Below are positions 195 to 61,092 of a DNA stretch of 64,000 nucleotides, piece after piece. The position numbers and the translations under genes were made by a program. The stretch lies in the NCBI GenBank assembly GCA_964572145.1, contig CAZNES010000006.1, forward strand, positions 22,603 through 86,602. Direction: 5' to 3'. Origin of the DNA: an uncultured Syntrophobacteraceae bacterium (GTDB lineage: Bacteria; Desulfobacterota; Binatia; UBA9968). Every line of letters starts with the position of its first letter. Within the stretch, counting starts at the first letter, position 1. The notes below the pieces were generated by a model. It saw only the letters and a list, made by a program, of their open reading frames with translations, did not search any database and was not told where the DNA came from.

Positions 195-2723
195 ATGCCC
201 GGCAAGATCGTCATCCGAGGGGCGCGGCAGCACAATCTAAAGAACATCGACCTCGAGATTCCCCGCGATCGCTTCGTCGTCATCACAGGAGTTTCCGGCT
301 CGGGAAAGTCCTCGTTAGCTTTCAACACTCTCTATGCCGAGGGTCAGCGCCGCTACATCGAGTCGCTCTCGGCTTACGCGCGGCAGTTCTTGCAGCAGAT
401 GGAGCGGCCCGACGTGGACGCGATCGAGGGGCTGTCGCCCGCGATCGCGATCGAGCAGCGCGGCGCGGGCCGGAATCCGCGCTCGACGGTCGGAACGATT
501 ACCGAGATTTACGACTATCTCAAGCTCCTCTTCGCCCGCATAGGCAAACCGCATTGCTACAAGTGCGGCCGTGAGATTGCCACGCACACGGTCCAGCAAA
601 TCGTCGATCGGCTCATCTCGTTACCGCCACAAACCCAGCTCAATATTCTGGCGCCGATCGCCGTTGCCGGAGTTGCCGATGCGCGGAAAAAGCTCGACGC
701 TTTGGCCAAGGCCGGCTTTGCGCGCGTCAAGATCGACGGCAGAGTTTACGAATTGAGCGAAGAGATCGCACTCAAAAAATCCGCCGGCCATGCCGTCGAT
801 CTGATCGTCGACCGAATCGTTCTAAGAGATGGCATCGAAAAGCGGCTGGCCGATTCCCTGGAGACCGCTTATCGCTACGGCGGCGACGTCCTCAAGGTCG
901 AGATTGTGGGCGGCACGGGAAATAATGACGCCGAGCTGATCTTCAGCCAGAAATCCATCTGCGTTCGCTGCGGTATTTCTTACGCCGAGCTTGCGCCGCA
1001 ACTTTTTTCATTCAACAGCCCGGAAGGCGCCTGTCCCGACTGCGCGGGTCTGGGCCGACGGCTCGCCGCTGGCAAAGGATCGGAGGAGCCAACAGATTAC
1101 CTCGACGCCGCGCTCTGCCCGGCTTGCAATGGAAAACGCCTCAGGAGAGAGAGTCTCCATGTTTTGATTGCGGGGAAGAGCATTTCCGATCTGTCGGGCG
1201 CCCCGGTCGCAGAGGTTCTAGATTTTTTCACCAAGCTCGAGCTCAGCGAGCGCGATCGGTCTATCGCCGACCGCATGGTGCGCGAGATCGCCGCACGGCT
1301 CGGTTTTTTGATTCAGGTCGGCTTGGATTATTTAAGCCTGGACCGGCCCTCGGCCACGCTTTCCGGCGGAGAGATTCAGCGAGTCCGGCTGGCGACGGAG
1401 ATCGGGTCGCGGCTGGTGGGGGTGCTCTACATTCTCGATGAGCCGAGTATCGGGCTTCATCCGCGGGACAACGCGCGTCTGCTTGGTCTTCTTTGCGAGC
1501 TTAGAGATCTGGGCAACACGGTGCTGGTGGTCGAGCATGATCGCGAGGCCATCATGGCGGCGGATCACGTCATCGATCTAGGACCCGGCGCCGGGGTTAA
1601 CGGCGGCGCGGTAGTGGCGCAAGGATCGCCGCGGCAAGTTTTGGCAAGTGAAGGATCGCTCACCGGCCGGTATCTTTCCGGCCGTCTGGAGATTCCGCTC
1701 CCCGCTCGCCGTCGCAAAAGCAACGGCAAAGCTCTGATCGTGAAAGGCGCGCGCCAGCACAATCTAAAAGGGATCACCGCGGAGTTCCCGCTAGGGGCGA
1801 TGACATGCGTGACCGGCGTTTCGGGATCGGGCAAAAGCAGCCTCGTCCTCGACACGCTCTACGTAGCGATGAATCAACGTCTTCACGGCGTGAAAGCCGG
1901 GACCGGACTGTGCGACAAACTCGTCGGATACCACAACTTCGATAACGTCATCAGCGTCGATCAGAATCCGATCGGCCGCACGCCACGCTCGAATCCCGCG
2001 ACCTACACGGGTCTATTTCCTCATATCCGCGATCTTTTCGCGCAGCTTCCGGAAGCGAGAGTGCGCGGCTTCGGACCCGGCAGGTTTTCTTTCAACGCTA
2101 AAGGCGGACGATGCGAAGCCTGCGCCGGCGACGGCATGGTCCGAATCGAGATGCACTTCCTGCCGGACACGTTCGTTCCCTGCGAAGTTTGCCATGGGCG
2201 GCGGTTTAACCGGGAGACCTTGGAGGTTTTGTATCGCGGTCGAAGCATCGCCGACGTTCTGGATTTAACCGTCAATCAGGCGATAGAGTTTCTGGGTAAT
2301 TTCCCGGCCATTCGCCGCAAGCTGGAAACGCTTAGAGACGTGGGCATGGGTTATGTCCGTCTCGGCCAGCCGGCGACGACTCTTTCCGGCGGCGAGGCGC
2401 AGCGGATCAAGCTGGCGCGCGAATTGAGCAAACGGTCCACCGGCAGAACGCTATATATCCTCGACGAGCCGACCACGGGTCTTCACTTCGACGACGTCAG
2501 AAAGCTGCTCGACGTGCTCAACCGTTTGACCGATGCCGGCAACACGGTCGTGGTCATCGAGCACAACCTGGACGTGATCAAGACGGCCGATTTCGTGTTG
2601 GATTTGGGTCCGGAGGGCGGATATGGTGGTGGAGAGGTCGTGGCTTTCGGCACTCCCGAGGAAATCGCTCTGGTAGAGAAATCTTATACCGGGCAATATT
2701 TGAAGAGCGTCCTTCATTTTTGA
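195..2723 (+). CDS. UvrA-family ABC ATPase paralog (842 aa) lacking the insertion domain
   Basis: N-term [63 protein letters not shown]; two Walker A/signature modules; zinc-finger CxxC pairs; only ~20 aa between CPDCAGLG and CPACNGKRL where canonical UvrA has a ~110-aa insertion domain. Confidence 0.9.
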
Positions 2724-9351: not shown

Positions 9352-10485
9352 TTGACACCTCTTTGGCGGCTCCATTATAGTGAACACGTGATTCAGCGGC
9401 GCAAAACAAGGCAAATTCAGCTTGGCAGCGTCAAAGTCGGCGGCGAGGCTCCGATCACCGTCCAGTCGATGACCAAGACCGACACGCGCGACGTGAGTGC
9501 GACGGTCCATCAGATATGGTCGTTGGAAGCCGCGGGCTGCGAGATCGTGAGAGTCGCGGTTCCCGTGCGCGAGGCGGCGGAAAAGTTGGGCGAGATCAAA
9601 AATAAGATTCGCATCCCGCTCGTCGCCGATATTCATTTCAACTACAAACTTGCCCTCATCGCTCTCGAACAGGGAGTGGATGGTCTACGCCTCAACCCCG
9701 GCAACATCGGCGAACGCTGGTGCGTCGATGAAGTGGTCAAAGTCGCCGCGGAACGCAAAATCCCGATTCGCATCGGCGTAAACGCGGGCTCGCTGGAGAA
9801 GGATCTACTGAAAAAATACGATGGGCCCACGGCCGAGGGGATGGTCGAAAGCGCACTCCGCCACATCGGCATCCTGGAAGATCTAGGGTACACGGAAATC
9901 AAGGTTTCGCTCAAAGCTTCCGATCCGCTCATGATGATCGAGGCTTACCGCATGCTGGCGCAGAAGGTGGACTATCCATTTCATTTGGGCGTCACGGAAG
10001 CGGGCACGCCGACGACGGGCACGATCAAATCTTCCGTCGGAATCGGCGCGCTCTTGGCCGAGGGCATCGGCGACACCATCCGTGTTTCCCTCGCCGCCGA
10101 TCCGGTGGAAGAAGTGCGGATCGGAATGGAGATTCTCAAATCGCTCGGCCTGCGCAAAGAAGGCATGACCTTCGTAGCTTGTCCTTCGTGCGGCCGCGCC
10201 GATATCGATCTCGTGGGACTGGCGAAAGAGGTGGAGCAGCGCATGTTGCCCTTCAGCAATAAAGACATTCACGTCGCGGTCATGGGCTGCGAGGTGAACG
10301 GTCCGGGTGAGGCGCGCGCGGCGGATATCGGCGTCGCCGGCGGCAAGGGCATCGGCCTCATCTTCAAAAAAGGCGAGGTGATCCGCAAGGTGCCGGAAGC
10401 CCAGATCGTGACTGCCCTGATGGAAGAAGTGGAAAAGCTCGTGGCTGAGAAAGAGGCGGAGCGGGCAGCGTCTCCGGAGGATTGA
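9352..10485 (+). CDS. ispG: 4-hydroxy-3-methylbut-2-enyl diphosphate synthase IspG (GcpE)
   Basis: ..KTRQIQLGSVKVGGEAPITVQSMTKTDTRDV..IVRVAVP..IPLVADIHFNYKLAL; C-terminal Fe-S cysteines (CPSCGR, GCEVNGPGE). Confidence 0.9.
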   Translation: MTPLWRLHYSEHVIQRRKTRQIQLGSVKVGGEAPITVQSMTKTDTRDVSATVHQIWSLEAAGCEIVRVAVPVREAAEKLGEIKNKIRIPLVADIHFNYKLALIALEQGVDGLRLNPGNIGERWCVDEVVKVAAERKIPIRIGVNAGSLEKDLLKKYDGPTAEGMVESALRHIGILEDLGYTEIKVSLKASDPLMMIEAYRMLAQKVDYPFHLGVTEAGTPTTGTIKSSVGIGALLAEGIGDTIRVSLAADPVEEVRIGMEILKSLGLRKEGMTFVACPSCGRADIDLVGLAKEVEQRMLPFSNKDIHVAVMGCEVNGPGEARAADIGVAGGKGIGLIFKKGEVIRKVPEAQIVTALMEEVEKLVAEKEAERAASPED

Positions 10486-10494
10486 CCTCTCAGT

Positions 10495-10662
10495 TTAAAA
10501 CGCAAAGTGCAAATTGAAAAATGCAAAAGTTTCGGAGATAGAATCCGGAATCTAGGAGCCACGCTCCGGGAAACGACAACGGTTTCTGACTACCGCATTC
10601 TGGATTCTGATTCCTGGCATTTTGACTTTTACACTTTGCAATTTTCATTTTGCATTGTGTAA
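10495..10662. repeat. composite AT-rich palindromic repeat element (TGCAAA(A)TG heptamer arrays, nested inverted repeats)
   Basis: Left arm GCAAAGTGCAAATTGAAAAATGCAAAAG, right arm CTTTTACACTTTGCAATTTTCATTTTGCA; inner inverted repeat GAATCCGGAATCT/ATTCTGGATTCT; homologous to the element at ~42600. Confidence 0.7.
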
Positions 10663-10668
10663 AAGAAC

Positions 10669-12414
10669 ATGCGCTGGACCACTACCCTCATTCCCACCCT
10701 CAAGGAGGATCCCTCCGATGCCGAGGTCATCAGCCACAAGCTGTTGGTCCGGGCCGGGATGATCCGCCAGTTGAGCCGGGGTATCTACGACTACCTGCCG
10801 CTTGCGCTCAAAGTCATCCGCAAGATCGAAGCGATCGTGCGTGAAGAGATGGACCGGGCGGGCGCGCAGGAGCTTTTGCTGCCGATCGCCTCGCCCGCCG
10901 AATTGTGGCAGGAGAGCGGCCGCTGGGAAGTGTACGGCAAAGAGCTCGTCCGCTTCAAAGACCGACACGAGCGTGATTTCTGCCTGGGGCCGACGCACGA
11001 AGAAGTGATCACGGATCTCGTCCGCCGCGTGGTGCGGTCGTATCGCGAGCTCCCTTTCAACCTGTACCAGATTCAAACCAAATTTCGCGACGAGGTGCGT
11101 CCCCGGTTCGGCCTGATGCGCGGCCGGGAATTCATCATGAAGGACGCCTACAGCTTCCACCCGAACGTCGAAGATTGCCGCCGCGAATATCAAAACATGT
11201 TCGACACCTACCGGCGGATTTTCACCCGCTTAGGCCTTAAGTTCCGCCCCGTGGAGGCGGACACGGGCGCGATCGGCGGCAGCTTGTCCCATGAGTTCCA
11301 GGTCTTGGCGGAATCGGGGGAGGACGCCATCGTCAGTTGCGACAAGTGCGACTACGCCGCGAATATTCAAAAGGCCGAGATCAAAAGCCATACGCCTTCG
11401 GCGCGCGATCTCAAGGATTCTTCGCCGCCGCTCAGAAAAGTTGCGACGCCCGTGAAAAAAACCGTCGCGGACGTCTCCCAATTCCTCTCACTCCCGGCCG
11501 AGCGGTTTATCAAAACGATGGTTTACAAAGTCGACAACGCCGAACTGGTGGCTGTCCTGGTCCGCGGCGATCATGAGATCAACGAGCTGAAGCTCAAGTC
11601 CGCGCTGCGTTGTCAGGAAGCAGTTTTGGCGGGCGAAGCCGAAGTACAAAAAGCCACCCGGGTAGCGCCCGGATTTTTGGGGCCGATCGGTCTCAAGCTC
11701 CGGACCATCGCCGATCACGCGATCCAAGGCATGCGCGGTGCGGTCACCGGCGCCAACGAGGCCGACGCCCATTTTGTCGACGTAGACCAGGAGCGGGACT
11801 TCACGCCGTCGGCCTTCGTCGACCTTCGCGTGGCGGTGGCCGGAGATTCTTGTCCGCGCTGCGATGAAGGCCGTCTCGAACTCTATCGCGGGATAGAAGT
11901 CGGCCAGGTTTTTTATCTGGGCAAAAAGTACAGCGAGAAGATGGGCGCGACCTATCTCGATCCCGAAGGGCGCGAGCAGCCCATCGAAATGGGCTGCTAT
12001 GGCATCGGCATCTCGCGCCTGCTCGCCGCCGCGATCGAGCAAAACCACGATGACAATGGAATCATCTGGCCCTTTGCCATAGCGCCGTTCCAGGCGATGA
12101 TTTTGCCGATCAACTACAAAGAAGAAAGACTCCAAAAAGCCGCCGACCGGCTATATGAAGAGCTGCGGCAGAGAAAGATCGACGTATTGCTGGACGACCG
12201 CGACGAGCGGCCGGGCGTCAAGTTCAAAGACGCCGATCTGGTCGGTATTCCCCTGCGTGTTACTGTGGGCGCGAAAGGTCTCGACAAGGGATGCATCGAG
12301 CTGCGTTGGCGACGCGACGGCAGTATGAAAGAGATTCCGATAGAAGAAGCGGCCGATCGAATCCAAGAGACGATTCGCGCGGAGACGGGCCAAGAAGCAT
12401 CGCGGAAAAACTGA
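10669..12414 (+). CDS. proS: prolyl-tRNA synthetase (bacterial type with INS editing domain)
   Basis: 581 aa; class II aaRS motifs; N-term MRWTTTLIPTLKEDPSDAEVISHKLLVRAGMIRQL. Confidence 0.95.
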   Translation: MRWTTTLIPTLKEDPSDAEVISHKLLVRAGMIRQLSRGIYDYLPLALKVIRKIEAIVREEMDRAGAQELLLPIASPAELWQESGRWEVYGKELVRFKDRHERDFCLGPTHEEVITDLVRRVVRSYRELPFNLYQIQTKFRDEVRPRFGLMRGREFIMKDAYSFHPNVEDCRREYQNMFDTYRRIFTRLGLKFRPVEADTGAIGGSLSHEFQVLAESGEDAIVSCDKCDYAANIQKAEIKSHTPSARDLKDSSPPLRKVATPVKKTVADVSQFLSLPAERFIKTMVYKVDNAELVAVLVRGDHEINELKLKSALRCQEAVLAGEAEVQKATRVAPGFLGPIGLKLRTIADHAIQGMRGAVTGANEADAHFVDVDQERDFTPSAFVDLRVAVAGDSCPRCDEGRLELYRGIEVGQVFYLGKKYSEKMGATYLDPEGREQPIEMGCYGIGISRLLAAAIEQNHDDNGIIWPFAIAPFQAMILPINYKEERLQKAADRLYEELRQRKIDVLLDDRDERPGVKFKDADLVGIPLRVTVGAKGLDKGCIELRWRRDGSMKEIPIEEAADRIQETIRAETGQEASRKN

Positions 12415-17660: not shown

Positions 17661-20600
17661 CTAGACAGTCACCGCTTGCGGCTGAACCTGCTTCGCTGAG
17701 TTCCCTTTCAAATATTCGCGCAGGTAGCGGGCGGTGTGCGATCGCTTGCCGTCGTTGATGACGTCCAGCGGCGCTCCGCAGGCGATCACGTGTCCGCCAT
17801 TCTCACCGCCCTCGGGGCCGAGATCGACGAGATAGTCCGCTTCTTTGATGATTTCGAGGTTGTGCTCGATCGTGACCACTGTGTTGCCCATGTCCACGAG
17901 CCGGTGCAGGATGTGGATTAATTTCTCTACGTCCGCGAAGTGTAAACCCGTCGTCGGCTCGTCTAAAACGTAAAGCGTCTTTCCATGCGATTCTTTTCCG
18001 AGTTCATACGCAAGCTTGATACGCTGCGCCTCGCCGCCGGAGAGCGTGTTGCTCGCCTGCCCGAGTGTGATGTAGCTCATGCCGATGTCGTCGAGGATTT
18101 TGAGCGGCCGCGCGATCTTGGGGAAGGCGTGAAAGAAGGGTACGGCCTCTTCGACCGTCATTCTCAGCACGTCTCCGATATTTTTCCCGTTGTAGCGGAT
18201 ATTGAGCGTCTCCTCGTTGAAGCGCATTCCGCCGCAGGCGTCGCAGTGGAGAAATACGTCGGGCAAGAAGCTCATCTCTTTGCGAATCTTTCCCTGCCCC
18301 GCGCAGACCTCGCACCGGCCGCCGGAAACGTTAAATGAAAATCGATTCGGCGCGTAGCCGCGCAGCCGCGCCTCCGGCGTGAGCGCAAACATGCGCCGGA
18401 TCTCGTCAAGAAAGCCGACGTAGGACGCGGGAATCGAGCGCGGCGTCTTGCCGATCGGACTCTGGTCCACCTCGACGATTCGCTCCAGCGCTTGCCAGCC
18501 GGCGATGTCTTTGTGCTGTCCGGGGCGTCCGGCGAACTGCCCGAGCTTCGACTTGAGTCCCTTGTAAAGCACTTCTTTGACCAGCGTGCTTTTGCCGGAA
18601 CCGGAGATTCCGGTGACACAGCTCCAGGCGCCGAGCGGCAATTTGACGTCGACGTTCTTTAAATTGTTTGCCTTCGCGCCGTGGACGGTGAGCCAGGTCG
18701 AGCCGGCGAAAAGACGGAGCGGCCAGATTCTCTTCTTCGGCGCGTTGAGAAAATTGCCGGTCAGCGAGGTGGGGTTGCGGCGGATTTCTTCGGGCGTGCC
18801 GATCGCGACGACGTTGCCGCCGTGGACTCCCGCGCCGGGACCGAGGTCCACGATGATATCGGCGGCCTCGATCGTCGCCTCGTCGTGCTCGACCACGAGC
18901 ACGCTGTTGCCCGCATTTTTCAATTTCTTCAGCGTGCCGAGCAGCATGGCGTTGTCGCGCGGGTGGAGGCCGATCGTCGGCTCATCCAGAATGTAGCAGA
19001 CGCCGCGCAGATTCGACCCGAGCTGCGCCGCGAGACGGATGCGCTGCGCTTCTCCGCCCGAGAGCGTGTCGGCGCGGCGGTCGAGAGTGAGATAAGGCAA
19101 TCCGACTTCGCCGAGAAATTCGAGCCGCTGTTGGATCTCGCGCAGAACTTTCTCCATGACCGCGCGGTCGCGGTCCGTGCCGCCGTTGTCGTGCTGGCTC
19201 AAATCGAGGCCGTGGAAATAGCGCTGGGCTTCCTTCACCGAAAGCCCGGTGACCTGCCAGATCGCCTGGCCGTTTACTTTGACCGCTTGCGCGCGGCGAT
19301 TGAGCCTTCGGCCGTGGCAGGAAGCGCAGGAAGACTCGGCCATGAATTGCGACAGCCAATCGGCCAAGCCGTTCTCCGACCCGTCCCAGAGTCCTTTCAG
19401 ATACGGGATGAGACCGACAAATCCGCTATCGCCGCCGTGCACCACCCGGTCGCGAATTTTTTTGCTCAAGCGCGAGAACGGCGCTTTGACGTTGACGCGG
19501 TCTTTCTTGAGATCGCGTAGAATTCTTTCCAGGCGTCCCCTGATCGGTCCCGCGCCGGCGGTGGCGCCGGAGGACAACGAAGAAACAATCTCTTCCAAGG
19601 GCCGGCGCTGATTGCCGATAATCAGCTCGGGGTCGAATTCCAGACTGAAACCGACGCCGGAACATTCCGCGCAGGCGCCTTGCCGGCTGTTGAAGGAAAA
19701 CAATCTTGGGTCGAGAGTCTCGTAGCCGATGCCGCAGTGGAGGCAGAAGAGGCGCTGGTTGTAGATGTGCTCGCCCGAGCGCGTGACGAGATGCACCACG
19801 CCGTTGCCGAGGCGAAGCCCTTGCTCCACCATCGCTTCCACCTCGCGCCCGCCGGCTTTGGCCTGGCCGATGAGGATATCGATATCGTGCTCGCGGTAGC
19901 GCTCCAGGCCGGCGGCTAATTTCGGCGATCGGAGATCGACGACCTGTCCGTCGATGCGCGCGCGCCGGTAGCCGAGCTTGAGCGCGCCGGTGATCACCTC
20001 TTTGTGAAATCCCTTCCGTCCCCTGACGATGGGGCTCAGCACCGCGATTTCCTTTCCCCGATGAACGCGGGAGATGCGATCGAGGATCTGGCTTTTGGTC
20101 AGCGACCGGATCTCGCGCTCGCACTTCACGCAGTGCTGCTTTCCGACTTTCGAATAGAGGAGCCTCAGATAGTGGTAAATCTCGGTGACGGTCGCGACGG
20201 TCGAGTTCCTTCCTCCCTGGCTGAGACGCTGCTCGATCGCCACGGTGGGAGGAATGCCGGAAAGCAGATCGACGTTCGGCCGGTCCATGATGTTTAGGAA
20301 CTGCCGCGCGTAGGTGGAGAGGCTGTCGATGTAGCGCCGCTGCCCCTCGGCATAGATGATGTCGAATGCGAGCGAAGATTTTCCCGAGCCGCTGAGTCCC
20401 GTGATCACGACGAAGCGGTCGCGGGGAATCTCGAGGCTGATATTTTTTAGGTTGTGCTCCTTGGCGCCGACGATTTGAATGGCATGGTTACCGTTGCCGG
20501 CGCCGTTCGACTCGGCGACGCGAAAACTTTTCTCCAAGCGCGGCGCGAACTGAGAAACGGCGCCGCGCTTCAAATAGGGCTTCAAGTACCGCCCGGTATG

Positions 20601-23324
20601 AGACGCGGCGCTGCGTGCGATCTCCTCCGGCGTGCCCTCGGCCACGATCGCGCCGCCGGCGTCGCCACCCTCTGGCCCCAAGTCGATGATGTGATCGGCG
20701 CATTTGACCACGTCCATGTTGTGCTCGATAACGATGATGGAGTGGCCCTGGTCGATCAGCTCGTTGAACGCCCAGAGGAGCTTCTCGATGTCGTGAAAGT
20801 GAAGGCCGGTGGTCGGCTCGTCGAAAATAAAGAGCGTCCCCGACTTGCGCGCCTTCGCCATGTGGGCCGCGAGTTTCAGCCGTTGCGACTCACCGCCGGA
20901 GAGCGTCGTGAGCGGTTGTCCCAGCCGGACGTAGTCCAGGCCGACCGCGCGCAGCGGGCGCAGGCCGTATTCGATTTCCGTCGAGTCTTTGAAAAATTCC
21001 ATCGCCTCGGCGACCGTCATGTCGAGCACGTCGCGGATCGTGCGGCGGCGATAGGCCACCTCTAAAATTTCCTGGCGGTAGCGGCTCCCCTGGCACTCGG
21101 GGCAGGAGGTGTAAACGTCCGAGAGGAACTGCATCTCGACTTTTTCAAAGCCTTCGCCCCGGCAGGTCTCGCATCGGCCTCCTTCGACGTTGAAAGAAAA
21201 AGTCGAAGGAGTGTAGCCCCGGAGGCGGGAAAGATCCGCGGCGGCGAAGAGCTTGCGGATGCCGTCGAAGACTTTCATGTAGGTCGCGGGGTTCGACCGT
21301 GGCGTCGTCCCGACCGGCGATTGATCGACCAAAATGACATCGGAGATCTTGTCCGCGCCTTCCAGGCTCGCGCAGTGCATGACCGTTGCGCCCGGAGAGT
21401 CTTTCAGCTTACGCAAATTGCGGTTTATCACTTCGTTGACCAGGCTCGACTTTCCCGAGCCGGAAACGCCGGTGAGGCAGACAAAAAGGCCCAGCGGAAT
21501 TTCCACGTCGATGGTTTTGAGATTGTTGGCATCCGCGCCGAAAATTTTAATGGTTCGCTGCGGGATCGGCTTGCGCCTCTTCGAAGGAAACGGAATGTTC
21601 TTTCTCTGCGACAGATACGCGGCGGTGAGGGACTTCTGGTCGCTCAAGAGATCGTTGTAAGATCCGGCAAAGACGATCTCGCCGCCGTGCTCGCCGGCCT
21701 TCGGTCCGAGGTCGATGATGTAGTCGCTCTCCTTGATGATCTCCGGATCGTGCTCGACCACGACCACGGTGTTTTGGTTGGCGCGGAGATCGTGAAGAAT
21801 TTCGACCAGCCGCCGGCTATCGCGTGGGTGCAGGCCGATCGACGGCTCGTCGAGGACGTAGAGCGTGTTCACCAGCGACGAGCCGATCGCGGTGGTGAGA
21901 TCGACGCGCCCGAGCTCGCCGCCAGAGAGCGTGCGCGACTGCCGGTCCAAGGTCAGATATTCGAGGCCGACGCCCATGAGATAACCGAGCCGGCGCCGGA
22001 TCTCGTCGAGAATCAGCGCTGCAACCGCGTCGCTCTCAGCGCCGAGATGAAGATCATTGAAGAAGCAATGCGCCTCGCCCACGCTCATCGCGGCGATATC
22101 GGCGACGGTTTTTTCGTCGACGCGGAAATTGAGCGCGTCGGGTTTCAGCCGCGACCCCCGGCATTCCGGGCAGAGTAGATAGGCGCGGTAGCGCGAGAGA
22201 AAGACGCGCACATGCATGCGGTAGCTCTTCCGCTCCAGCCGCTGGAACCAGCCGCGGATGCCTTTAAACTTGCCGTCGCCGTCGACGATCAGTTTCTTCT
22301 GCTTCTCGCTCAGCTCGCCGTAAGGCTTCTTGGTCGGAATCTTTTTGCTTTCGCAAAATTCCATCAGTCGCGCCGTCCGCCGCGGCTTGGTCTTCCACGG
22401 CTTGATCGCGCCGTCGGCGAGCGACTTCGTCGGATCGGGGATCACGAGATCCAAATCGATGTCGATCACTCGCCCAAAACCGCGGCAGATTTCGCACGCG
22501 CCCAACGGGCTGTTGAACGAGAACAGATTCGGCGTGGGCTCGTGGTAGGTCAAATCGCAATGCGGACAATGGAAGTGGCTGCTGAAGGGCTCCACACGCC
22601 AGCCGTCTTCCGGGTAGTAAAAGTTTACCCTTCCCTTGCCGAACTGAAGCGCTTGTTCGAGCGAGTCGCAAATTCTCTTTCTGGCGTCTGGCCGGTAAAT
22701 CAACCGGTCCACGACAACTTCGATTCGCTCCGTCCCGGCGGGGAGATCTTCGATCTCTTCCAGATTGCAGACGGCGCGGTCGCGCAAAAGACGATGGAAG
22801 CCCGCTTGCTGCAACCCCGCCTTAGTCTCGCTCCAGGGAAGCGAGGGAGAAATCGAAAGCGGAAAAGCCAGAACCAGAGGCGTCCCTTCGGGCATGCCGC
22901 TCAATTTCTTGAATATCGATTGGGCCGTGTCCCGCTCCACCACCCGCCCGCAGCCTTTGCAATAAAGGACCGAGACCTTGGCGAAGAGGAGCTTCAGATG
23001 ATCGTGCAGCTCGGTCATGGTGCCGACCGTCGAGCGCGAGGTCTTGACCGGCCGCCGCTGGTCGATCGCGATCGTCGGCGGAATGCCTTCGATGCTTTCC
23101 ACGTCGGGCTTGTCCATGCGGTCGAGGAACTGGCGCGCGTAGGCGGAAAAACTTTCCACGTAGCGCCGCTGCCCCTCGGCGTAAAGGATGTCGAAAGCGA
23201 GAGTGGATTTGCCCGAGCCGCTGACTCCGGTGACGACGGTCAGGGCGCCCAGCGGAATGTCGAGGTCGAAGTTTTTAAGATTGTTCTGCTTTGCGCCGCG
23301 GATGCGGATCCAACCTTCATTCAT
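17661..23324 (-). CDS. uvrA: giant tandem UvrA-UvrA fusion protein (1887 aa; four ABC ATPase modules)
   Basis: Two complete UvrA units in one ORF: first begins [44 protein letters not shown], second begins ~aa 950 [39 protein letters not shown]; the second unit carries the canonical UvrB-binding signature [13 protein letters not shown] and an insertion domain; the first unit has an insertion domain but a divergent region instead of the UvrB-binding signature. Confidence 0.9.
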
Positions 23325-23332
23325 GGAATGGC

Positions 23333-23659
23333 CTATTGTAGTTGATACCTTTCGACCACAATGCGGCGGAAGCGGGAGCCGTAGATCAAATCGAAAGTCT
23401 CGCCTTTGTCGGGAAAAAGCTCGAGGGCTTTTTCCCGCGCGTCGGCGACGAGCTTCTGAGCTTGGGCGAGGGTCAGGTCGGCTTGCCGGAGGAGCGCGGC
23501 GGTAAAATCCATCAGGGTGCGGAGCCGTTTCAGCCTTAATTCCTCGGCGCGTACTGCTTCGTCATCCGGGATCATCGTACAACCTTTTACTTGTATCACA
23601 GGTCGCAAGTGAGTCAAGGCAAAATGATTGCGGTGAGTCCTTTCGGAGAGATCCTTCAC
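23333..23659 (-). CDS. small hypothetical protein (80-108 aa) ending ~6 bp before the giant uvrA start
   Basis: ORF ..MIPDDEAVRAEELRLKRLRTLMDFTAALLRQADLTLAQAQKLVADAREKALELFPDKGETFDLIYGSRFRRIVVERYQLQ; predicted coiled/helical; position suggests co-transcription. Confidence 0.45.
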   Translation of the reverse strand: MKDLSERTHRNHFALTHLRPVIQVKGCTMIPDDEAVRAEELRLKRLRTLMDFTAALLRQADLTLAQAQKLVADAREKALELFPDKGETFDLIYGSRFRRIVVERYQLQ

Positions 23660-23782
23660 TTCGTTCAGGATGACAATTTCCCACGAATGTCACTCTGAGC
23701 GTAGCGAAGAATCTCCGTTCAGGTCACGCGTTGGGTCGCGAGTCGGTTCGATTCTCCTCCGCCGCTTTGCTAAGCTGGAGCT

Positions 23783-34707: not shown

Positions 34708-34736
34708 CAGGCCTTAAAAAAGGGTGAGTTATCAAT

Positions 34737-34773
34737 AAAGGGGGCGTCTGGAATTCCAGACGCCCCCTTTATT
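34737..34773 (+). terminator. rho-independent terminator after groEL (GGGGGCGTCTGG aatt CCAGACGCCCCC TTTATT)
   Basis: Perfect 12-bp stem plus T-rich tail. Confidence 0.8.
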
Positions 34774-34780
34774 GTCGCGC

Positions 34781-35488: not shown

Positions 35489-35845
35489 ATGAGCGATCCT
35501 TATTTTCCCGTCCTGGTAATTTTTTTCATTGCCGGGCTGGTTGTGTTGGGACTACTCCTGATCGCCCAAACGGCCGGTCCCAAAAGGCCGAGCCCGGTCA
35601 AGGCGGAACCTTTCGAGTCGGGAAATCCGCCGAAAGGCGACGCCCGCATTCGTTTTCCGGTAAAGTTCTATCTGGTAGCGATGCTTTTTCTCATCTTCGA
35701 CTTGGAAGCCGTTTTTCTCTATCCCTGGGCCGTCACGTTTCGCCGCCTGGGGATTTTCGGCCTTGTGGAGATGGGGATTTTTTTGCTCATCGCCGTGATC
35801 GGCTTTATGTATGCCTGGAAAAAAGGCGCGCTGGACTTGGAGTAA
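35489..35845 (+). CDS. nuoA: NADH-quinone oxidoreductase subunit A
   Basis: 118 aa, three TM helices, ..FLYPWAV.. Confidence 0.9.
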   Translation: MSDPYFPVLVIFFIAGLVVLGLLLIAQTAGPKRPSPVKAEPFESGNPPKGDARIRFPVKFYLVAMLFLIFDLEAVFLYPWAVTFRRLGIFGLVEMGIFLLIAVIGFMYAWKKGALDLE

Positions 35846-35851
35846 TTTTCA

Positions 35852-36415
35852 ATGCCGGAAGAGAGCCCGCGCATTCAATATCTCAGCGGCAAATTCGGCG
35901 CGCTGATTCTTGAATCGCATGTGCTCCACGGCGACGAGACGGTCGTCATCCGCCGGGAGGGATTGCTGGAGATCGTCCGCGCTCTCAAAGAAGATCCCAA
36001 AATGGACTTCGATTTTCTCGCGGACCTTACCGCGGTCGATTATTTGGGAAAAAAAGAGCCGCGCTTCGAAGCGGTCTATCACCTGCTTTCCTTGCAGAGC
36101 CATCGCCGCATCCGCGTCAAAGTCCCGGTTCCGGAAGATCAGCCGGAAGTCGATTCTTTGACGCCGCTGTGGAAGGGGGCGAACTGGCTGGAGCGCGAGG
36201 TCTGGGACATGTTCGGCATTCGCTTTCGCGGCCATCCCGATCTCCGACGCATCCTGCTCTACGAGGAGTTCCGCGGCTATCCGCTGCGGAAAGACTATCC
36301 GGTGAACCAGCGCCAGCCTCTGATTCCCGAGCGGCCGCTCGCGGGAACTTTCGTCGATACCCGGTCGGACAATAAACTCTTGCAACTGAAGCAGAAGGCT
36401 GAGCGCAAGCCATAA
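35852..36415 (+). CDS. nuoC: NADH-quinone oxidoreductase subunit C
   Basis: ..EREVWDMFGIRFRGHPDLRRILL.. 30-kDa subunit signature; begins 6 bp after nuoA (no nuoB in between). Confidence 0.9.
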   Translation: MPEESPRIQYLSGKFGALILESHVLHGDETVVIRREGLLEIVRALKEDPKMDFDFLADLTAVDYLGKKEPRFEAVYHLLSLQSHRRIRVKVPVPEDQPEVDSLTPLWKGANWLEREVWDMFGIRFRGHPDLRRILLYEEFRGYPLRKDYPVNQRQPLIPERPLAGTFVDTRSDNKLLQLKQKAERKP

Positions 36416-36423
36416 GCGGCGCC

Positions 36424-37614
<1,191 letters not shown>

Positions 37615-37635
37615 ATCGCAAAGGTAGGGGCGGGT

Positions 37636-38136: not shown

Positions 38137-38138
38137 CG

Positions 38139-39410: not shown

Positions 39411-39414
39411 TTTC

Positions 39415-42104: not shown

Positions 42105-42111
42105 ACGAACG

Positions 42112-42594: not shown

Positions 42595-42599
42595 CTGGG

Positions 42600-42705
42600 A
42601 CAATGCAAAAGTCAAAGTGCAAAATGCAAATTTCAAAATGCACAAGGCCGAAAATCCGGCAATTTTGCATTTTTCATTTTTCATTTTTCATTTTGCAATC
42701 GGGGT
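42600..42705. repeat. AT-rich hairpin repeat (TGCAAAA heptamer arrays) between nuoJ and nuoK
   Basis: GCAAAAGTCAAAGTGCAAAATGCAAATTTCAAAATGCACA - loop GGCCGAAAATCCGGC - CAATTTTGCATTTTTCATTTTTCATTTTGCAATCGG; same family as the 10.5-kb element. Confidence 0.7.
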
Positions 42706-42710
42706 GAACA

Positions 42711-43013: not shown

Positions 43014-43017
43014 CGCT

Positions 43018-43072
43018 CCCAATGTTGAATTTTGAATTATGAATTTTGAATTGAAATCCGATTCGGAAATCG
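43018..43072. repeat. tandem TGAATTN heptamer repeat (x4) between nuoK and nuoL
   Basis: TTGAATTTTGAATTATGAATTTTGAATTGAAAT followed by small palindrome TCCGATTCGGA. Confidence 0.6.
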
Positions 43073-43075
43073 CAG

Positions 43076-44977: not shown

Positions 44978-44981
44978 GGGC

Positions 44982-52757: not shown

Positions 52758-52767
52758 GGTTGAGGTA

Positions 52768-53592: not shown

Positions 53593-53644
53593 TGACCGGA
53601 AGGCGAGTCCTCGCGGCGCGAGTTTCGGGCCGCGGCCGAGCCCT

Positions 53645-53722
53645 TCGGGATCTCAAATTGAAAATCTCAGATCTCAAAGGATTCCAAATCTGAGATATGA
53701 AATCTGCCATTTGAAATTCCGA
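53645..53722. repeat. AT-rich hairpin repeat (TGAAAT/TCAAAT heptamers; stem ATCTCAGAT/ATCTGAGAT)
   Basis: CTCAAATTGAAAATCTCAGATCTCAAAGGATTCCAAATCTGAGATATGAAATCTGCCATTTGAAATTC. Confidence 0.6.
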
Positions 53723-53737
53723 GCGTAGCGAGGACGT

Positions 53738-58204: not shown

Positions 58205-58217
58205 AAAATACTCTCGC

Positions 58218-60512
58218 CTATCGCCTTTCGCCTCTCGCCTTCTTGTCTTTAAGCGCCCGCCATACTTTTTCCGGCGTCAATGGAGCGCTGCGGATGCGCA
58301 CTCCGACCGCGCGCTCGACGGCGTTGGCGATGTTCGCGGGCATGGAATTCAACGACCCCTCGCCGCCGCCTTTGGCGCCGTAGGGCCCGACGCCGTCCTG
58401 ATTCTGCACCAGATGCAGAGCGATTTTTTTCGGCAGGTCCGAAAAGCGCGGCAGGCGGTAATCCAAAATGGACCCGTTCATCAACTGCGGGCCCTGATAA
58501 ACCAGCTCTTCAAAAAGGCCGATGCCCATTCCCATGGTAGCAGCGCCGATGTCCTGACCTTCGGCCAGCGCGGGATTGATTGCCAGTCCGACGTCGCCGA
58601 CGGTGACGAGCTTCTCGACGTTGATCTTCCCGGTCTCTTCATCGACGGCGACTTCGATGCCGGTGCTGACAGTTTCCCAAAAAACCGGGATCTGCGAAAA
58701 CCGTCCAGACTTCCGAATGTAAGCGCGGCCGATGACTTCGCCGTCGGGAAGCGCGTAAAACTTGCTGATGACCTCCGACCAGTTGAGTTGGGCTTCGCCG
58801 CAGCGCACGCCGCCGCGGATGACTTGGATCTGCTCGACCTTCACCTTGAGCACGTCCGCGGCCATCACGACCATCTGCTGGATCGCCTCGCGGCTCGCTT
58901 CCATAACCGCGCTGCCCATGAGCGTCGTCGTCCGACTCGCGCCGGTGGAGCGGTCGTATGGCGTGATCGCGGTGTCGGACGCGACCACGTGAACTTTTTC
59001 GAACGGTACTCCCAGCTCCTCGGCCGCGATTTGCGGGATGACCGTGTGGCTTCCCTGACCCAGCTCGGTGCTGCCGGTCATGATCGTCACCGAGCCGTCG
59101 GCGTGAACGCGCACCGCCGTGGACGTCAGCGGGTAGGCGCCGGCGTCGCTGGTCGAGCAGGCGAGGCTCCGGCCGTGGCCTTTCGCGATCGGCTGATTCC
59201 AGCCGATGGCCTTGGCGGCGATGTTGAGATCTTCCTTAAGCGTGCCGTCGAACGGGCGCATCTTGGGCATGAACTCTTCGCCCGGCTTGGCCACGTTCGC
59301 CAGGCGAAATTCGTAGGAGTCCTTGCCGATCTTGGCCGCCAGCTCGTCGATCTGCGATTCGCCCGGCAGCGTCACTTGGGCGCAGCCGAAGCCGCGGTAA
59401 GAACTCGCCGGGACCGTATTCGTATAGTAGGAATAATTGTCGATCTGCACGTTGGGGATGGCATACGGCCCGACGCAGCGGTTGGTGGATTTCTCGACTA
59501 CGAGCGGACTGTTCTCGGCGTACGCGCCCGTGTTCATGTAAATCTTCGCCTGACGGGCGATGATCTTGCCGTCGGCATCCACCGCCGTGCGCATCCAGGT
59601 AAGGGCGTCGTCGCTGCGCGTCGTCAGCATCGCCTCTTCGATCGTGAGCTGCAATTTCACCGGCCGCTTGGCTTTCCACGAGCATGCGGCCGCCAGCGGC
59701 TCGATCTTGGTGTACGACTTGCTGCCGTAGCCGCCGCCGACGAACGGCACGATCAAACGGACCTGGCTCACGGGCAGGTTGAAAACCGATTTCAAGTCGT
59801 GGCGCACCATGAAAGGATGCTGCGCCGAAGAATAAACCGTGACGCCGGTCTCCTGGACATCCGCGATTGCGACGTAGGCTTCCATGGCATAGGCGTACGT
59901 CATCGGAAAGTAATATTCGGCTTCGACGACGGCCGCGGCTTTTTTGAATGCCGCTTCGACGTCGCCCCATTTGATGTGAGCCTCCTGGCAGATGTTGGTC
60001 CCGCGGCCGGCGGTGACTTCTCCTTCGAAGCCGCGGAGCGCGCCGGCCTCGAACTTTTTTTCGTGCAACAGGGGCGCGTCCTTGGCCATCGCTTCTTGGG
60101 GAGTCAAGACCGGCTTCAGCTCTTCGTATTTCACCTCGATATGTTCGAGAGCGCAGAAGGCCGTGCGTTCGTCGACCGCGACCACCGCAGCCACGGGCTC
60201 GCCGGCATAGCGCACTTTTTCGATCGCGAGCAGCGGATGGTCTTTCACCGCATGGCCGTAATAAGGGTCCAAGCCTTCGAGATCGTTGCCGGTGATGACG
60301 CAGTGAACGCCGGGCAGCGCCGCGGCGTGTGCAGTGTCGATGGAAACAATCTTCGCGTGGGCGTAAGGGCTGCGCAGAACTTTTGCGTAGGCCATGCCCG
60401 TCAGCTTCACGTCGCTTACGTACATGGCTTTGCCGGTAACTTTCACGCGGCCGTCGCGCCGCGGCACGGAATGATTGACTACGTGGAAGTCGGTTTTCTT
60501 TTCCGCGCTCAC
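58218..60512 (-). CDS. molybdopterin large subunit of a xanthine-dehydrogenase-family enzyme
   Basis: 764 aa; ..SSYRGFGCAQVT.. active-site region; aldehyde oxidase/XDH a/b hammerhead and MoCo domains. Confidence 0.9.
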   Translation of the reverse strand: MSAEKKTDFHVVNHSVPRRDGRVKVTGKAMYVSDVKLTGMAYAKVLRSPYAHAKIVSIDTAHAAALPGVHCVITGNDLEGLDPYYGHAVKDHPLLAIEKVRYAGEPVAAVVAVDERTAFCALEHIEVKYEELKPVLTPQEAMAKDAPLLHEKKFEAGALRGFEGEVTAGRGTNICQEAHIKWGDVEAAFKKAAAVVEAEYYFPMTYAYAMEAYVAIADVQETGVTVYSSAQHPFMVRHDLKSVFNLPVSQVRLIVPFVGGGYGSKSYTKIEPLAAACSWKAKRPVKLQLTIEEAMLTTRSDDALTWMRTAVDADGKIIARQAKIYMNTGAYAENSPLVVEKSTNRCVGPYAIPNVQIDNYSYYTNTVPASSYRGFGCAQVTLPGESQIDELAAKIGKDSYEFRLANVAKPGEEFMPKMRPFDGTLKEDLNIAAKAIGWNQPIAKGHGRSLACSTSDAGAYPLTSTAVRVHADGSVTIMTGSTELGQGSHTVIPQIAAEELGVPFEKVHVVASDTAITPYDRSTGASRTTTLMGSAVMEASREAIQQMVVMAADVLKVKVEQIQVIRGGVRCGEAQLNWSEVISKFYALPDGEVIGRAYIRKSGRFSQIPVFWETVSTGIEVAVDEETGKINVEKLVTVGDVGLAINPALAEGQDIGAATMGMGIGLFEELVYQGPQLMNGSILDYRLPRFSDLPKKIALHLVQNQDGVGPYGAKGGGEGSLNSMPANIANAVERAVGVRIRSAPLTPEKVWRALKDKKARGERR

Positions 60513-60997: not shown

Positions 60998-61092
60998 TAG
61001 CTGGAGTGTTGGAGTACTGGAGTATTGGAGTGTTGTTCAAGAAAAGTAAACCACTCCGGCTTCATTACTCCATTACTCCATCACTCCATTCT
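60998..61092. repeat. hairpin repeat: (TGGAGTR)x4 paired with (ACTCCAT)x4 in the leader of the S-L-M operon
   Basis: CTGGAGTGTTGGAGTACTGGAGTATTGGAGTGTTG - 16 nt - CACTCCGGCTTCATTACTCCATTACTCCATCACTCCATTC. Confidence 0.7.

What the first reader, a model, noticed from the sequence alone, without database searches (positions are those of the whole stretch)
10495..10662. Family of AT-rich intergenic hairpin elements built from tandem 7-8-mer arrays (five or more loci)
Five intergenic spots share one architecture. Each has about four tandem copies of a 7-8-nt unit starting TG (TGCAAAA, TGAATTT, TGAAATC, TGGAGTA) and then the inverse-complement array. This forms long imperfect hairpins that are much lower in GC than the ~65% GC surroundings. 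The loci are ~10495-10662 (ispG/proS), ~42600-42705 (nuoJ/nuoK), ~43018-43072 (nuoK/nuoL), ~53645-53722 and ~60998-61092. The first two are clearly homologous (shared CAAAGTGCAAA..ATGCAAA and TTTCATTTTGCA arms). The 10.5-kb copy is a nested composite with an inner GAATCCGGAATCT/ATTCTGGATTCT palindrome. They resemble REP/MITE-like or structured-RNA elements, but the heptamer periodicity is not a feature of families I know.
Basis: seen in the sequence. Interest (0 to 1): 0.6.

Follow-up and report, generated by a model that had tools for sequence, protein, structure and literature searches.

The report
Heptamer-built hairpin repeats between genes
The flagged AT-rich spacers are real copies of small, non-coding hairpin repeats whose arms are runs of 7-8-base units; they most likely spread like REP or MITE elements, and one family of them turns up almost unchanged in at least three bacterial phyla.

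Summary
Four of the five loci are imperfect hairpins made of a 7-8-nt tandem array followed by its inverse. The fifth (43.0 kb) is a single array plus a short stem, and I found a sixth, unpaired array at 58,214. The window comes from a Candidatus Binatia MAG with 59% GC, not 65%.

The ispG/proS and nuoJ/nuoK copies belong to one large family. These share conserved 39-nt imperfect inverted arms and have unrelated interiors. Several contigs carry more than one copy. Hosts include Binatia, a Desulfofervidus-like MAG and a Vicinamibacterales-like acidobacterium.

Copies are present or absent at orthologous junctions. They nest inside one another. They lie inside transcription units in either orientation and almost never between divergent genes. 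They show no base-pair covariation, no target-site duplication, no Rfam match and no promoter or terminator signature.

The best reading is REPIN/MITE-like selfish DNA moved in trans by an unidentified enzyme and then reshaped by slippage. Heptamer periodicity is not new: Geobacter metallireducens paired heptanucleotide sites, cyanobacterial STRR, Xanthomonas GGGAATC and Beggiatoa TAACTGA are precedents. The TGCAAAA family and its spread across phyla appear undescribed.

The parts
10491..10657 (.). Element A: composite hairpin filling the ispG/proS spacer; member of the TGCAAAA family
   Evidence: Sequence read; folded. nhmmer with profiles built from 26 metagenomic copies matches 10491-10527 (E 2e-9) and 10619-10657 (E 1e-9).
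10491..10529 (+). A, left arm: CAGTTTAAAACGCAAAGTGCAAATTGAAAAATGCAAAAG, about 5 heptamers
10619..10657 (+). A, right arm: ATTTTGACTTTTACACTTTGCAATTTTCATTTTGCATTG, an imperfect inverse of the left arm
   Evidence: It differs by 1 substitution from the 21-nt core of the family consensus.
10540..10614 (.). A, nested inner hairpin. Arms are AGAATCCGGAATCT (10540-10553) and ATTCTGGATTCTGATTCC (10597-10614), around a GC-richer core (10554-10596).
   Evidence: Absent from L114, which has the same junction and the same outer family. The unit is the same as the G. metallireducens class 3 MTYCTGA sites and as L027 1365-1403.
42601..42699 (.). Element B: TGCAAAA-family hairpin in the nuoJ/nuoK spacer. 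Left arm 42601-42645, central GGCCGAAAATCCGGC at 42646-42660, right arm 42661-42699.
   Evidence: Present in 9 of 10 contigs that encode an identical NuoK; L003 has a 2-nt junction instead.
43021..43072 (+). Element C: unpaired (TGAATTT)x4 array (43021-43052) running into a stem of about 10 bp just upstream of the nuoL start codon
   Evidence: Sister strains carry (TGGATTT)x4 at the same place. Three contigs have a 48-nt GC-rich element inserted in that array.
53644..53723 (.). Element D: hairpin of ATCTCAR / YTGAGAT-type heptamers between a hydrolase gene and an Asp/Glu-racemase-like gene
   Evidence: Identical in L011.
61001..61090 (.). Element E: hairpin of TGGAGTAN octamers and their inverse, made of 7-bp helices separated by one mismatch per unit. 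It lies between an LLM oxidoreductase gene and an XDH Fe-S subunit gene, both on the minus strand.
   Evidence: Identical in L012-L014.
58214..58240 (-). Array F (not in the finding): (GGCGAGA)x3.9 on the coding strand. It forms the last codons and the stop of the 764-aa molybdopterin-subunit ORF and ends 9 nt before the next gene's start codon. It has no inverse partner.

Best explanation
The five loci are copies of small, non-coding, hairpin-forming dispersed repeats: selfish or near-neutral DNA of the REP/REPIN/MITE type whose arms are tandem 7-8-nt arrays.

**Shown**
1. The ispG/proS and nuoJ/nuoK copies belong to one widespread family. It has conserved 39-nt imperfect inverted arms (CAATGCAAAATGCAAAGTGCAAATTGAAAAATGCAAART ... 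ATTTTGACTTTTACATTTTGCAATTTTCATTTTGCATTG) and a free interior.
2. Copies are gained or lost at orthologous junctions.
3. Copies nest in one another, in either order.
4. Copies sit between a stop codon and the next ribosome-binding site, or at gene 3' ends, in either orientation. They avoid divergent promoter regions.
5. Genomes that carry one unit family carry many, while close relatives carry none.

**Inferred**
- The elements are copied in trans as hairpin DNA by an enzyme encoded elsewhere in the genome. An HUH/Y1-type enzyme such as RAYT or IS200/IS605 TnpA is the best guess, because no target duplication is seen and insertions go into other hairpins or arrays.
- Copies persist only where they do not break promoters or ribosome-binding sites.
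- Afterwards their arrays change by replication slippage and by homogenisation between units and between arms.
- Because they are co-transcribed, they must form long AU-rich stems in the mRNA. Any effect on mRNA stability or processing would be secondary.
For: **One family, many places**
- These hits reduce to about 94 distinct loci, of which 50 or more have both arms.
- The right arm was not part of the query, yet across the 23 aligned copies its columns are almost all at least 70% conserved, most at 90% or more.
- Several contigs carry 2-4 copies, with ordinary genes between them.

**Hosts in three phyla**
- The window is Binatia.
- L165 matches a MAG named 'Syntrophobacter sp. DG_60', whose next FtsA relatives are Desulfofervidus at 62%.
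- L205 is Vicinamibacterales-like, with ribosomal protein S4 at 90% identity.

**Gain and loss at orthologous sites**
- ispG/proS is occupied in the window, in L104/L180 and in L114. It is empty in L015, L017 and L019. It holds a different CACGAAG-unit hairpin in L016/L018 and yet another hairpin in L029 but not L027.
- nuoJ/nuoK is empty in L003, next to a 300-bp patch of raised divergence.
- rpsK/rpsD and rpsD/rpoA are occupied in L205 and empty in L219-L221.

**A clean nested insertion**
- A 48-nt GC-rich element sits inside the nuoK/nuoL array in L002, L005 and L152.
- It is absent from seven sister contigs. It recurs almost identically at an unrelated locus in L132.

**Nesting in both orders**.

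**Copies decay away from a consensus**
- 101 pair-breaking single changes against 3 compensatory ones.
- No covariation beyond shuffles.

**Gene context**
- 25 co-directional, 8 convergent and 1 divergent placement; sense versus antisense is 10 versus 15.

**Co-occurrence of unit families**
- About 100 non-TGCAAAA period-7 arrays occur in the 675 kb of carrier contigs. That is 0.15 per kb against a baseline of 0.005 per kb.
Against: - No mobilising gene was found. None of the roughly 40 window ORFs I scanned is a transposase, and none lies between paired copies in the metagenome contigs.
- No target-site duplication was found, and no exact empty site exists for a TGCAAAA-family copy.
- The termini lack the GTAG/CGTC tag typical of REPs.
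- The window and L114 have saturated four-fold sites in ispG (44.5% identity), yet their element arms are about 96% identical. That needs either independent insertion at the same junction, ongoing homogenisation, or purifying selection; the last would favour a host function.
- Between the window and L180, the whole element differs at about 3.6% (my count from the sequences printed), against 13% at four-fold sites.
- The family was not found in 2.9 million viral contigs or in plasmids, so no vehicle for transfer between phyla has been identified.
Confidence: 0.5

Rival explanations
1. They are cis-regulatory binding arrays for a host nucleic-acid-binding protein. This could be a nucleoid protein such as IHF or HU acting on DNA or a cruciform, as proposed for the G. 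metallireducens sites. It could also be an RNA-binding protein acting on the mRNA next to the ribosome-binding site. Either would form a 'global regulon'.
For: - The same unit sequences recur across phyla with little change.
- Arms stay about 96% identical where neutral sites are saturated.
- Copies end 10-19 nt before start codons, leaving the Shine-Dalgarno sequence intact.
- The IHF/HU and regulator hypotheses have been published for look-alike arrays (PMC2700814; PMC4679880).
Against: - Many unrelated unit sequences share the architecture within one genome, which one sequence-specific protein cannot read.
- Near-identical strains and 90%-identical relatives lack the elements at the same housekeeping junctions: nuoJ/K, rpsK/rpsD and ispG/proS.
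- The flanking genes have no common theme.
- Both orientations occur.
Confidence: 0.2
2. They arise locally, without any mobility. Polymerase slippage would favour 7-nt units, and intramolecular template switching would then copy one arm into the other, so that hairpins 'grow' in place.
For: - Unit sequences differ from locus to locus, and unpaired arrays exist at 43021 and 58214.
- At nuoK/nuoL all four units differ by the same A/G change between alleles, TTTGAAT versus TTTGGAT, which indicates concerted change.
- Unit variants are mirrored between the two arms of element E.
- A slippage hypothesis for heptamers has been published (Mrazek 2007, as summarised in PMC4679880).
Against: - It cannot explain about 94 loci in three phyla sharing the same 39-nt arms, including the same six mismatches.
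- It cannot explain the conserved non-repetitive loop of the L029 family.
- It cannot explain the 48-nt insert found at two unrelated loci.
- Slippage probably acts after insertion rather than as the origin.
Confidence: 0.12
3. They are selected RNA structures within operons: intercistronic stem-loops that stabilise the upstream cistron or act as RNase III/E processing sites, the function often ascribed to REPs.
For: - All five window copies lie between co-directional genes and must be transcribed.
- The predicted stems are long and stable.
- Placement avoids divergent promoters.
Against: - There is no covariation.
- Wobble-type G-T mismatches are not clearly favoured over A-C, 31 versus 21.
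- The sense strand is not consistently the more stable one.
- No intrinsic-terminator signature is present.
- The elements are dispensable in sister strains.
Confidence: 0.1
4. They are an assembly or binning artefact of low-complexity sequence.
For: All the data come from MAGs and metagenome assemblies.
Against: The same elements, base for base or with a few substitutions, occur in independent assemblies from NCBI, ENA, JGI and Logan, with intact flanking genes.
Confidence: 0.01

Closest known systems
Paired hepta/octanucleotide-repeat sites of Geobacter metallireducens (Gmet_I classes 1-3; Aklujkar et al. 2009, PMC2700814)
   Same: - Both have 3-5 tandem 7-8-nt units and a second array on the opposite strand at a variable distance.
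- Both are intergenic, including inside operons (proB/proA in that paper).
- Both occur as several unit families within one genome.
- The class 3 unit (ATTCTGA/CTCCTGA) is the unit of the inner palindrome of element A (ATTCTGG ATTCTGA TTCCTGG).
   Different: - That paper treated the sites as unique to one genome and as IHF/HU 'global regulator' sites.
- Here the families are shared between phyla, are polymorphic between strains and are nested.
- The TGCAAAA family is not among the classes described in the text and supplement I could read.
REP / BIME / REPIN elements mobilised by RAYT transposases (Bertels & Rainey 2011, PMC3116915)
   Same: - Both are short, extragenic, imperfect palindromes forming hairpins, with many copies per genome.
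- Both lie at gene 3' ends or within operons and rarely between divergent genes.
- Neither has coding capacity.
- In both, copies behave as a population around a master sequence.
   Different: - There is no GTAG/CGTC terminal tag.
- The arms are tandem heptamer arrays of about 39 nt rather than a 20-nt REP.
- The interior is highly variable because of nesting.
- No RAYT was seen, although whole genomes were not available.
- One family spans at least three phyla.
Cyanobacterial STRR heptamer repeats and small dispersed repeats (Mazel 1990; Elhai et al. 2008, cited from my own knowledge because the papers are not held in the library)
   Same: - Both are lineage-specific floods of intergenic tandem heptamers.
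- Both include very small mobile hairpin repeats that insert into one another and into heptamer arrays.
   Different: The phyla and unit sequences differ. I could not compare directly because the paper is not in the library.
Xanthomonas GGGAATC and Nostoc GGGGAYT heptamer arrays (Rehm et al. 2015, PMC4692102); Beggiatoaceae TAACTGA arrays (MacGregor 2015, PMC4679880)
   Same: - All are intergenic heptamer arrays, typically of about four units.
- All vary between close relatives, and some occur as inverted pairs.
- Many lie just upstream of start codons, as elements C and F do here.
   Different: Those are mostly single direct arrays of one G-rich or fixed unit per genome. They were interpreted as G-quadruplexes or translational signals. 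The window's elements are AT-rich, mostly paired and use many different units.
MITEs
   Same: Both are non-autonomous and non-coding. Both have terminal inverted repeats, are dispersed and show insertion polymorphism.
   Different: No target-site duplication was found, and no parent IS with the same ends was found.

Membership tests
Heptanucleotide long simple-sequence repeats (Mrazek 2007 sense) | Tandem arrays of a 7-nt unit that are longer than chance, mostly intergenic and over-represented in particular lineages | tested here: met
   - TRF results.
- 12 arrays in 146 kb against 6 in 1,149 kb.
- All window arrays of 3.5 or more copies have period 7-8.
G. metallireducens-type paired hepta/octanucleotide sites (PMC2700814) | 3-5 tandem 7-8-nt units, with a second array on the opposite strand at a variable distance | tested here: met
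   for elements A, B, D and E. Not met for C and F, which are single arrays.
G. metallireducens-type paired hepta/octanucleotide sites (PMC2700814) | Class 3 unit consensus MTYCTGA | tested here: met
   The inner arms of A read ATTCTGG ATTCTGA TTCCTGG, compared with the supplement alignment. The outer TGCAAAA arms do not match any class whose consensus I could read.
G. metallireducens-type paired hepta/octanucleotide sites (PMC2700814) | Binding by IHF/HU (the proposed function) | not testable with these tools
   This needs biochemistry.
REP / REPIN | Extragenic imperfect palindrome or doublet forming a hairpin, repeated many times per genome | tested here: met
   Copy number per whole genome is not measurable from these data.
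REP / REPIN | Conserved terminal GTAG or CGTC tetranucleotide (PMC3733652) | tested here: not met
   The consensus termini are CAATGCAAAA...TTTTGCATTG.
REP / REPIN | A cognate RAYT (Y1/HUH) gene flanked by the repeats | tested here: inconclusive
   No such gene is among the window ORFs I scanned or between paired copies. Only 64 kb of the genome is available.
MITE | Terminal inverted repeats and no coding capacity | tested here: met
   39-nt arms with 33 of 39 positions complementary. The interiors are 10-120 nt.
MITE | Target-site duplication flanking each copy | tested here: not met
   No 2-8-nt duplication was found at any offset from -4 to +4 in 26 copies. The 48-nt nested insert also shows none, or at most 1 nt.
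MITE | A parent autonomous element with the same ends | tested here: inconclusive
   No long-range arm pair enclosing a transposase was found in 675 kb.
Structured non-coding RNA family | Match to a curated family, or base pairs maintained by compensatory change | tested here: not met
   Rfam gave no hit at gathering score, and only chance-level plant and animal miRNA hits at E of 0.04 or higher. There is no covariation.
Intrinsic terminator / sigma-70 promoter | GC-rich stem followed by a T-run; or -35/-10 hexamers | tested here: not met
   None of the sites reported lies in the five elements proper.

The most novel reading that the evidence does not exclude
The heptamer-array hairpins may form a distinct superfamily of mobile DNA that is recognised by architecture rather than by sequence. 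It would comprise many unit families (TGCAAAA, ATTCTGA, CACAGAG, GTTCAC, TGGAGTA and others). A single, still unidentified trans-acting enzyme would move them all, inserting them preferentially into other hairpins or arrays and passing between phyla. That would make mobile elements, rather than polymerase slippage, the source of the long-noted excess of heptanucleotide repeats in some bacteria.
Probability: 0.25. Interest if true: 0.8.

Novelty: new member of a known kind. Interest (0 to 1): 0.5.

Why it matters
Why certain bacteria are flooded with intergenic heptanucleotide repeats has been an open question since the 1990s, and polymerase slippage has been the default answer.

The data here point another way.
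- The same 39-nt arms, with the same mismatches, occur at about 94 loci in three phyla.
- Clean insertions are visible inside older arrays.
- Whole sets of unit families are present in one genome and absent from a relative 90% identical in ribosomal protein S4.

Together these suggest that the arrays are the arms of small mobile hairpins. If so, a cognate enzyme should exist and could be found by phyletic profiling.

There are also practical consequences. These elements inflate operon spacers, sit next to ribosome-binding sites of core genes (nuo, proS, rpsD), extend an ORF at 58,214, and are likely break points for MAG assembly.

Tried and rejected
- **Rfam.** The whole window at gathering score and the 10.5-kb locus at E up to 10 gave nothing credible.
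- **Plasmid BLAST of element A.** Only a 30-nt chance hit.
- **Viral contigs.** No hit for the family pattern. A TGGAGTA-octamer pattern gave four contigs with arrays, one of them resembling element E's arm, but none is a clear hairpin element.
- **Promoter and terminator scans.** No site lies within the five elements proper; the one terminator-like match at 10,579-10,596 falls in the core of A's nested insert.
- **Exact-protein look-ups.** Those for IspG and for two wrongly chosen starts of the XDH small subunit found nothing. The corrected start returned only contigs with an identical spacer.
- **L003 as the empty site of element B.** Rejected. The junction sits at the edge of a 300-bp recombination patch, and its spacer is not the element-less version of the occupied spacer.
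- **Target-site duplication search.** Negative.
- **Search for an autonomous copy or a gene trapped between two arms.** Only housekeeping genes were found.
- **A shared 'CCGAAA/TTCGG' loop motif across elements.** I noticed it but did not test it, so I do not rely on it.
- **nhmmer with arm profiles** on 1.4 Mb of named genomes. It found only the window copies and their nuoJ/K orthologues.
- **Literature search for the arm sequence.** Only unrelated eukaryotic primers.
- **Elhai 2008.** The paper could not be read.
- **The tool's inverted-repeat search on 23,325-23,782.** It found nothing because no 6-nt exact seed exists there. The palindrome was confirmed by folding instead.

Full report
**1. 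What is in the window**

The window has 58.9% GC. Its best ProS matches, at 75-82% identity, are MAGs named Candidatus Binatia or 'Deltaproteobacteria bacterium'.

- ispG (9352-10485) and proS (10669-12414)
- nuoJ, nuoK and nuoL (42112-44977)
- a hydrolase and an Asp/Glu-racemase-like gene (52729-54457)
- on the minus strand, an F420/LLM oxidoreductase (61093-62115) and a xanthine-dehydrogenase-type Fe-S subunit (60509-60988)

Every element therefore lies between two co-directional genes. Each fills the spacer from a few bases after the stop codon to about 10-25 nt before the next start codon, leaving any Shine-Dalgarno-like GGAG/AGGA motif outside the hairpin.

**2. The observation checked**

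- TRF finds period-7 or period-8 arrays at each locus. No other array in the window reaches 3.5 copies.
- Four loci fold into long imperfect hairpins well beyond shuffled controls. The nuoK/nuoL spacer does not: it is a single (TGAATTT)x4 array plus a short stem.
- A sixth, unpaired array, (GGCGAGA)x3.9, supplies the last codons of the 764-aa ORF ending at 58,218.
- These spacers are the lowest in GC among the spacers of 35 nt or more that I listed: 0.35-0.43 for four of them, while the 145-nt spacer holding element D averages 0.53 because its first part is GC-rich.
- Across 80 ProS loci from named genomes, period-7 arrays are about 16 times denser in the Binatia set than in 69 unrelated genomes. 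In those genomes coding periods (3, 6, 9, 15) dominate.
- A few other lineages are also rich in such arrays: two Thermodesulfobacteriota MAGs, a Nitrospinota MAG and one 'Deltaproteobacteria' MAG. There too the arrays are often paired as hairpins.

**3. Variation between strains**

Ten contigs encode a NuoK identical to the window's.
- Nine carry the nuoJ/nuoK hairpin with 0-5 substitutions. One, L003, has a 2-nt junction instead.
- L003 is otherwise closest to an element-bearing group. It has a 300-bp patch of raised divergence ending exactly at the junction. It is therefore a recombinant allele, not a precise empty site.

At nuoK/nuoL:
- The window and L006 have TTTGAAT units. Seven other contigs have TTTGGAT units, with the same A/G difference in all four units.
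- L002 and L005 and L152 carry in addition a 48-nt GC-rich element inserted cleanly into that array.
- The same 48 nt recur at an unrelated locus in L132.
- This is the clearest insertion event in the data, and it shows no target duplication.

**4. The ispG/proS junction in relatives**

| Locus | IspG identity to window | State of the spacer |
|---|---|---|
| L104 / L180 | 98-99% | Same composite element, 6 substitutions in 168 nt (my count) |
| L114 | 89% | Same outer arms, unrelated 31-nt interior |
| L015, L017, L019 | 85-86% | About 45-52 nt, no element |
| L016 / L018 | 86% (L016) | A different hairpin made of CACGAAG-type units |
| L029 (but not L027) | 58-59% | Yet another hairpin |

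- Four-fold degenerate sites between the window and L114 are saturated at 44.5% identity. The element arms are nevertheless about 96% identical.
- Either the same family entered this junction twice, or the arms are kept from drifting.
- The inner palindrome of the window copy is a later, nested addition.

**5. A large family**

- I searched metagenome contigs with the left-arm core shared by the two window copies, CAAAGTGCAAA-N(0-8)-TTKMAAAATGCA.
- After removing redundant loci there are about 94 distinct sites, and at least 50 have a recognisable right arm within 400 nt.
- The consensus is CAATGCAAAATGCAAAGTGCAAATTGAAAAATGCAAA(A/G)T ... ATTTTGACTTTTACATTTTGCAATTTTCATTTTGCATTG.
- The arms pair at 33 of 39 positions. 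The six mismatches are themselves conserved from copy to copy.
- Interiors range from 11 to 122 nt and are unrelated between copies. They often consist of a second hairpin built from other units such as CAGAGAC/GTCTCTG or CGTGA.
- In L120 the order is reversed: CACAGAG arms lie outside and TGCAAAA arms inside.
- Contigs such as L211, L185, L109, L098 and L165 carry two to four copies. The genes between them are ordinary, including FtsA, an ABC ATPase and a dehydrogenase subunit, with no transposase.
- Contig GC ranges from 0.34 to 0.65.
- By the names that the sources give to the best protein matches, L165 belongs to a Desulfofervidus-related MAG and L205 to a Vicinamibacterales-like acidobacterium.
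- Relatives of L205 with 90%-identical S4 have an empty 44-nt rpsK/rpsD spacer. They lack the GGTTCAC hairpin that L205 has at rpsD/rpoA, and they have no period-7 array of three or more copies in 20 kb.
- The family is absent from 2.9 million viral contigs, from plasmids, from Rfam and from the searchable literature.

Caveats:
- 23 nt of the left arm were fixed by the query.
- Host names are those given by the data sources.

**6. How the copies behave**

- Variation between copies is almost entirely made of single changes that break pairs: 101, against 3 compensatory doubles.
- The tool's count gives 90.3% of cells paired against 90.5% in shuffles, and a covariation score equal to the shuffle mean.
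- G-T mismatches (31) are not clearly favoured over A-C mismatches (21).
- No 2-8-nt target duplication appears at any boundary offset.
- I made a crude ORF-based assignment of flanking genes for 34 copies. Ten lie between co-directional genes in the 'sense' orientation, 15 in the 'antisense' orientation, 8 between convergent genes and 1 between divergent genes. With 25% divergent placements expected, one or fewer in 34 has a probability of about 7e-4 (my arithmetic).
- This is the distribution known for REP elements (established knowledge of REP biology; PMC3116915).
- None of the reported promoter-like or terminator-like sites lies in the five elements proper; the only overlap is a terminator-like match at 10,579-10,596, in the GC-richer core of A's nested insert.

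**7. Many unit families travel together**

- The 675 kb of contigs recovered through the TGCAAAA pattern contain 261 period-7 arrays.
- About 155 are TGCAAAA-type. About 100 use other units, at 0.15 per kb against a baseline of 0.005 per kb.
- Units such as CACAGAG, CACGAAG, GGATGAA, CGCCAAG and GTTCAC recur in different contigs and phyla.
- Region 4,440-5,200 of L185 is a mosaic of such arrays.

**8. Relation to published work**

- Aklujkar et al. (PMC2700814) described in G. metallireducens four classes of multicopy sites: three built of 3-5 tandem hepta/octanucleotides paired on opposite strands, and a fourth based on a pentanucleotide (CCYTC). One lies between proB and proA. They proposed that the sites bind IHF/HU.
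- Their class 3 alignment (ATTCTGA / CTCCTGA units) matches the unit of the inner palindrome of element A and of L027 1365-1403.
- Heptanucleotide repeats as the most abundant long SSR class, their sporadic lineage distribution and the polymerase-slippage hypothesis are summarised in PMC4679880 and PMC4692102.
- Those two papers also describe intergenic arrays of about four units, sometimes inverted and often just upstream of start codons.
- The architecture is therefore a known, poorly understood kind. The TGCAAAA family, its range across phyla, its nesting and the all-or-none carriage of many families are, as far as I could find, new.

**9. Interpretation**

- The best-supported reading is REPIN/MITE-like selfish DNA, moved in trans and then reshaped by slippage and homogenisation (confidence 0.5).
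- The enzyme is inferred, not observed.
- The strongest counter-evidence is the conservation of the arms where neutral sites are saturated. That leaves room for a host function, either protein binding or an RNA role.
- Purely local origin by slippage is rejected for elements A and B. It remains possible for single arrays such as C and F.

Noticed in passing
window 58214-58240: A GC-richer heptamer array, (GGCGAGA)x3.9 on the minus strand, encodes the last residues and the stop codon of the 764-aa molybdopterin-binding subunit ORF. It ends 9 nt before the next gene's start codon. This shows that such arrays can extend a reading frame.
   Followed up: partly
window 23648-23720; L002 1880-1927; L005; L152; L132 (minus strand, about 11,480-11,530): This is a second kind of small GC-rich repeat carrying the motif CTGAGCG-N-AG-Y-CGAAG.
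- In the window it forms an imperfect palindrome (75% complementary, predicted -32.6 kcal/mol) in the 458-nt divergent spacer.
- A 48-nt version is inserted in the nuoK/nuoL heptamer array of some strains and recurs almost identically at an unrelated locus.
   Followed up: partly
window 17661-23324 (-) and 195-2723 (+): An 1887-aa ORF carries two sets of UvrA-type domains (UvrA_inter twice, UvrA DNA-binding, four ABC ATPase regions). It looks like a duplicated or fused UvrA-like protein. A separate 842-aa UvrA-like ORF lies at the start of the window.
   Followed up: no
window 35489-47949; L001 2801-11177: The nuo cluster runs nuoA, C, D, E, F, G, H, J, K, L, M, N. No nuoB (Oxidored_q6) or nuoI gene was called between its neighbours.
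   Followed up: no
L003 about 1510-1809 compared with L001: A 300-bp patch of raised divergence (21 differences, against 0-3 per 100 nt elsewhere) ends exactly at the element-free nuoJ/nuoK junction. This suggests a recombination tract whose boundary is the element's site.
   Followed up: partly
L185 4440-5200: This intergenic mosaic is made almost entirely of different tandem 7-9-mers: CACAGAGG/CACGGAGG, TGCAAAA, CGCCAAGG and GGATGAA. TGCAAAA modules recur at about 4523, 4661 and 4820.
   Followed up: partly
L029 1740-1850, 4030-4125, 19220-19290: A Thermodesulfobacteriota MAG carries a dispersed hairpin family with a conserved non-repetitive loop (CCGAAAGAAAATRTCGGAC) flanked by GGTTAAC/GGATAAC heptamer arms. 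The contig has 14 period-7 arrays in 21.6 kb.
   Followed up: partly
window 34733-34774: A perfect 21+21-nt palindrome (CAATAAAGGGGGCGTCTGGAA/TTCCAGACGCCCCCTTTATTG) lies directly after groEL, between convergent genes. It looks like an ordinary bidirectional terminator and is unrelated to the heptamer elements.
   Followed up: no
L215 2382-2403 (IMG/VR contig): A viral contig carries AACGGAGTGTTGGAGTAATGGAGTATTGGAGTGCTGG, close to the left arm of element E. TGGAGTAN octamer arrays therefore also occur outside this genome.
   Followed up: no
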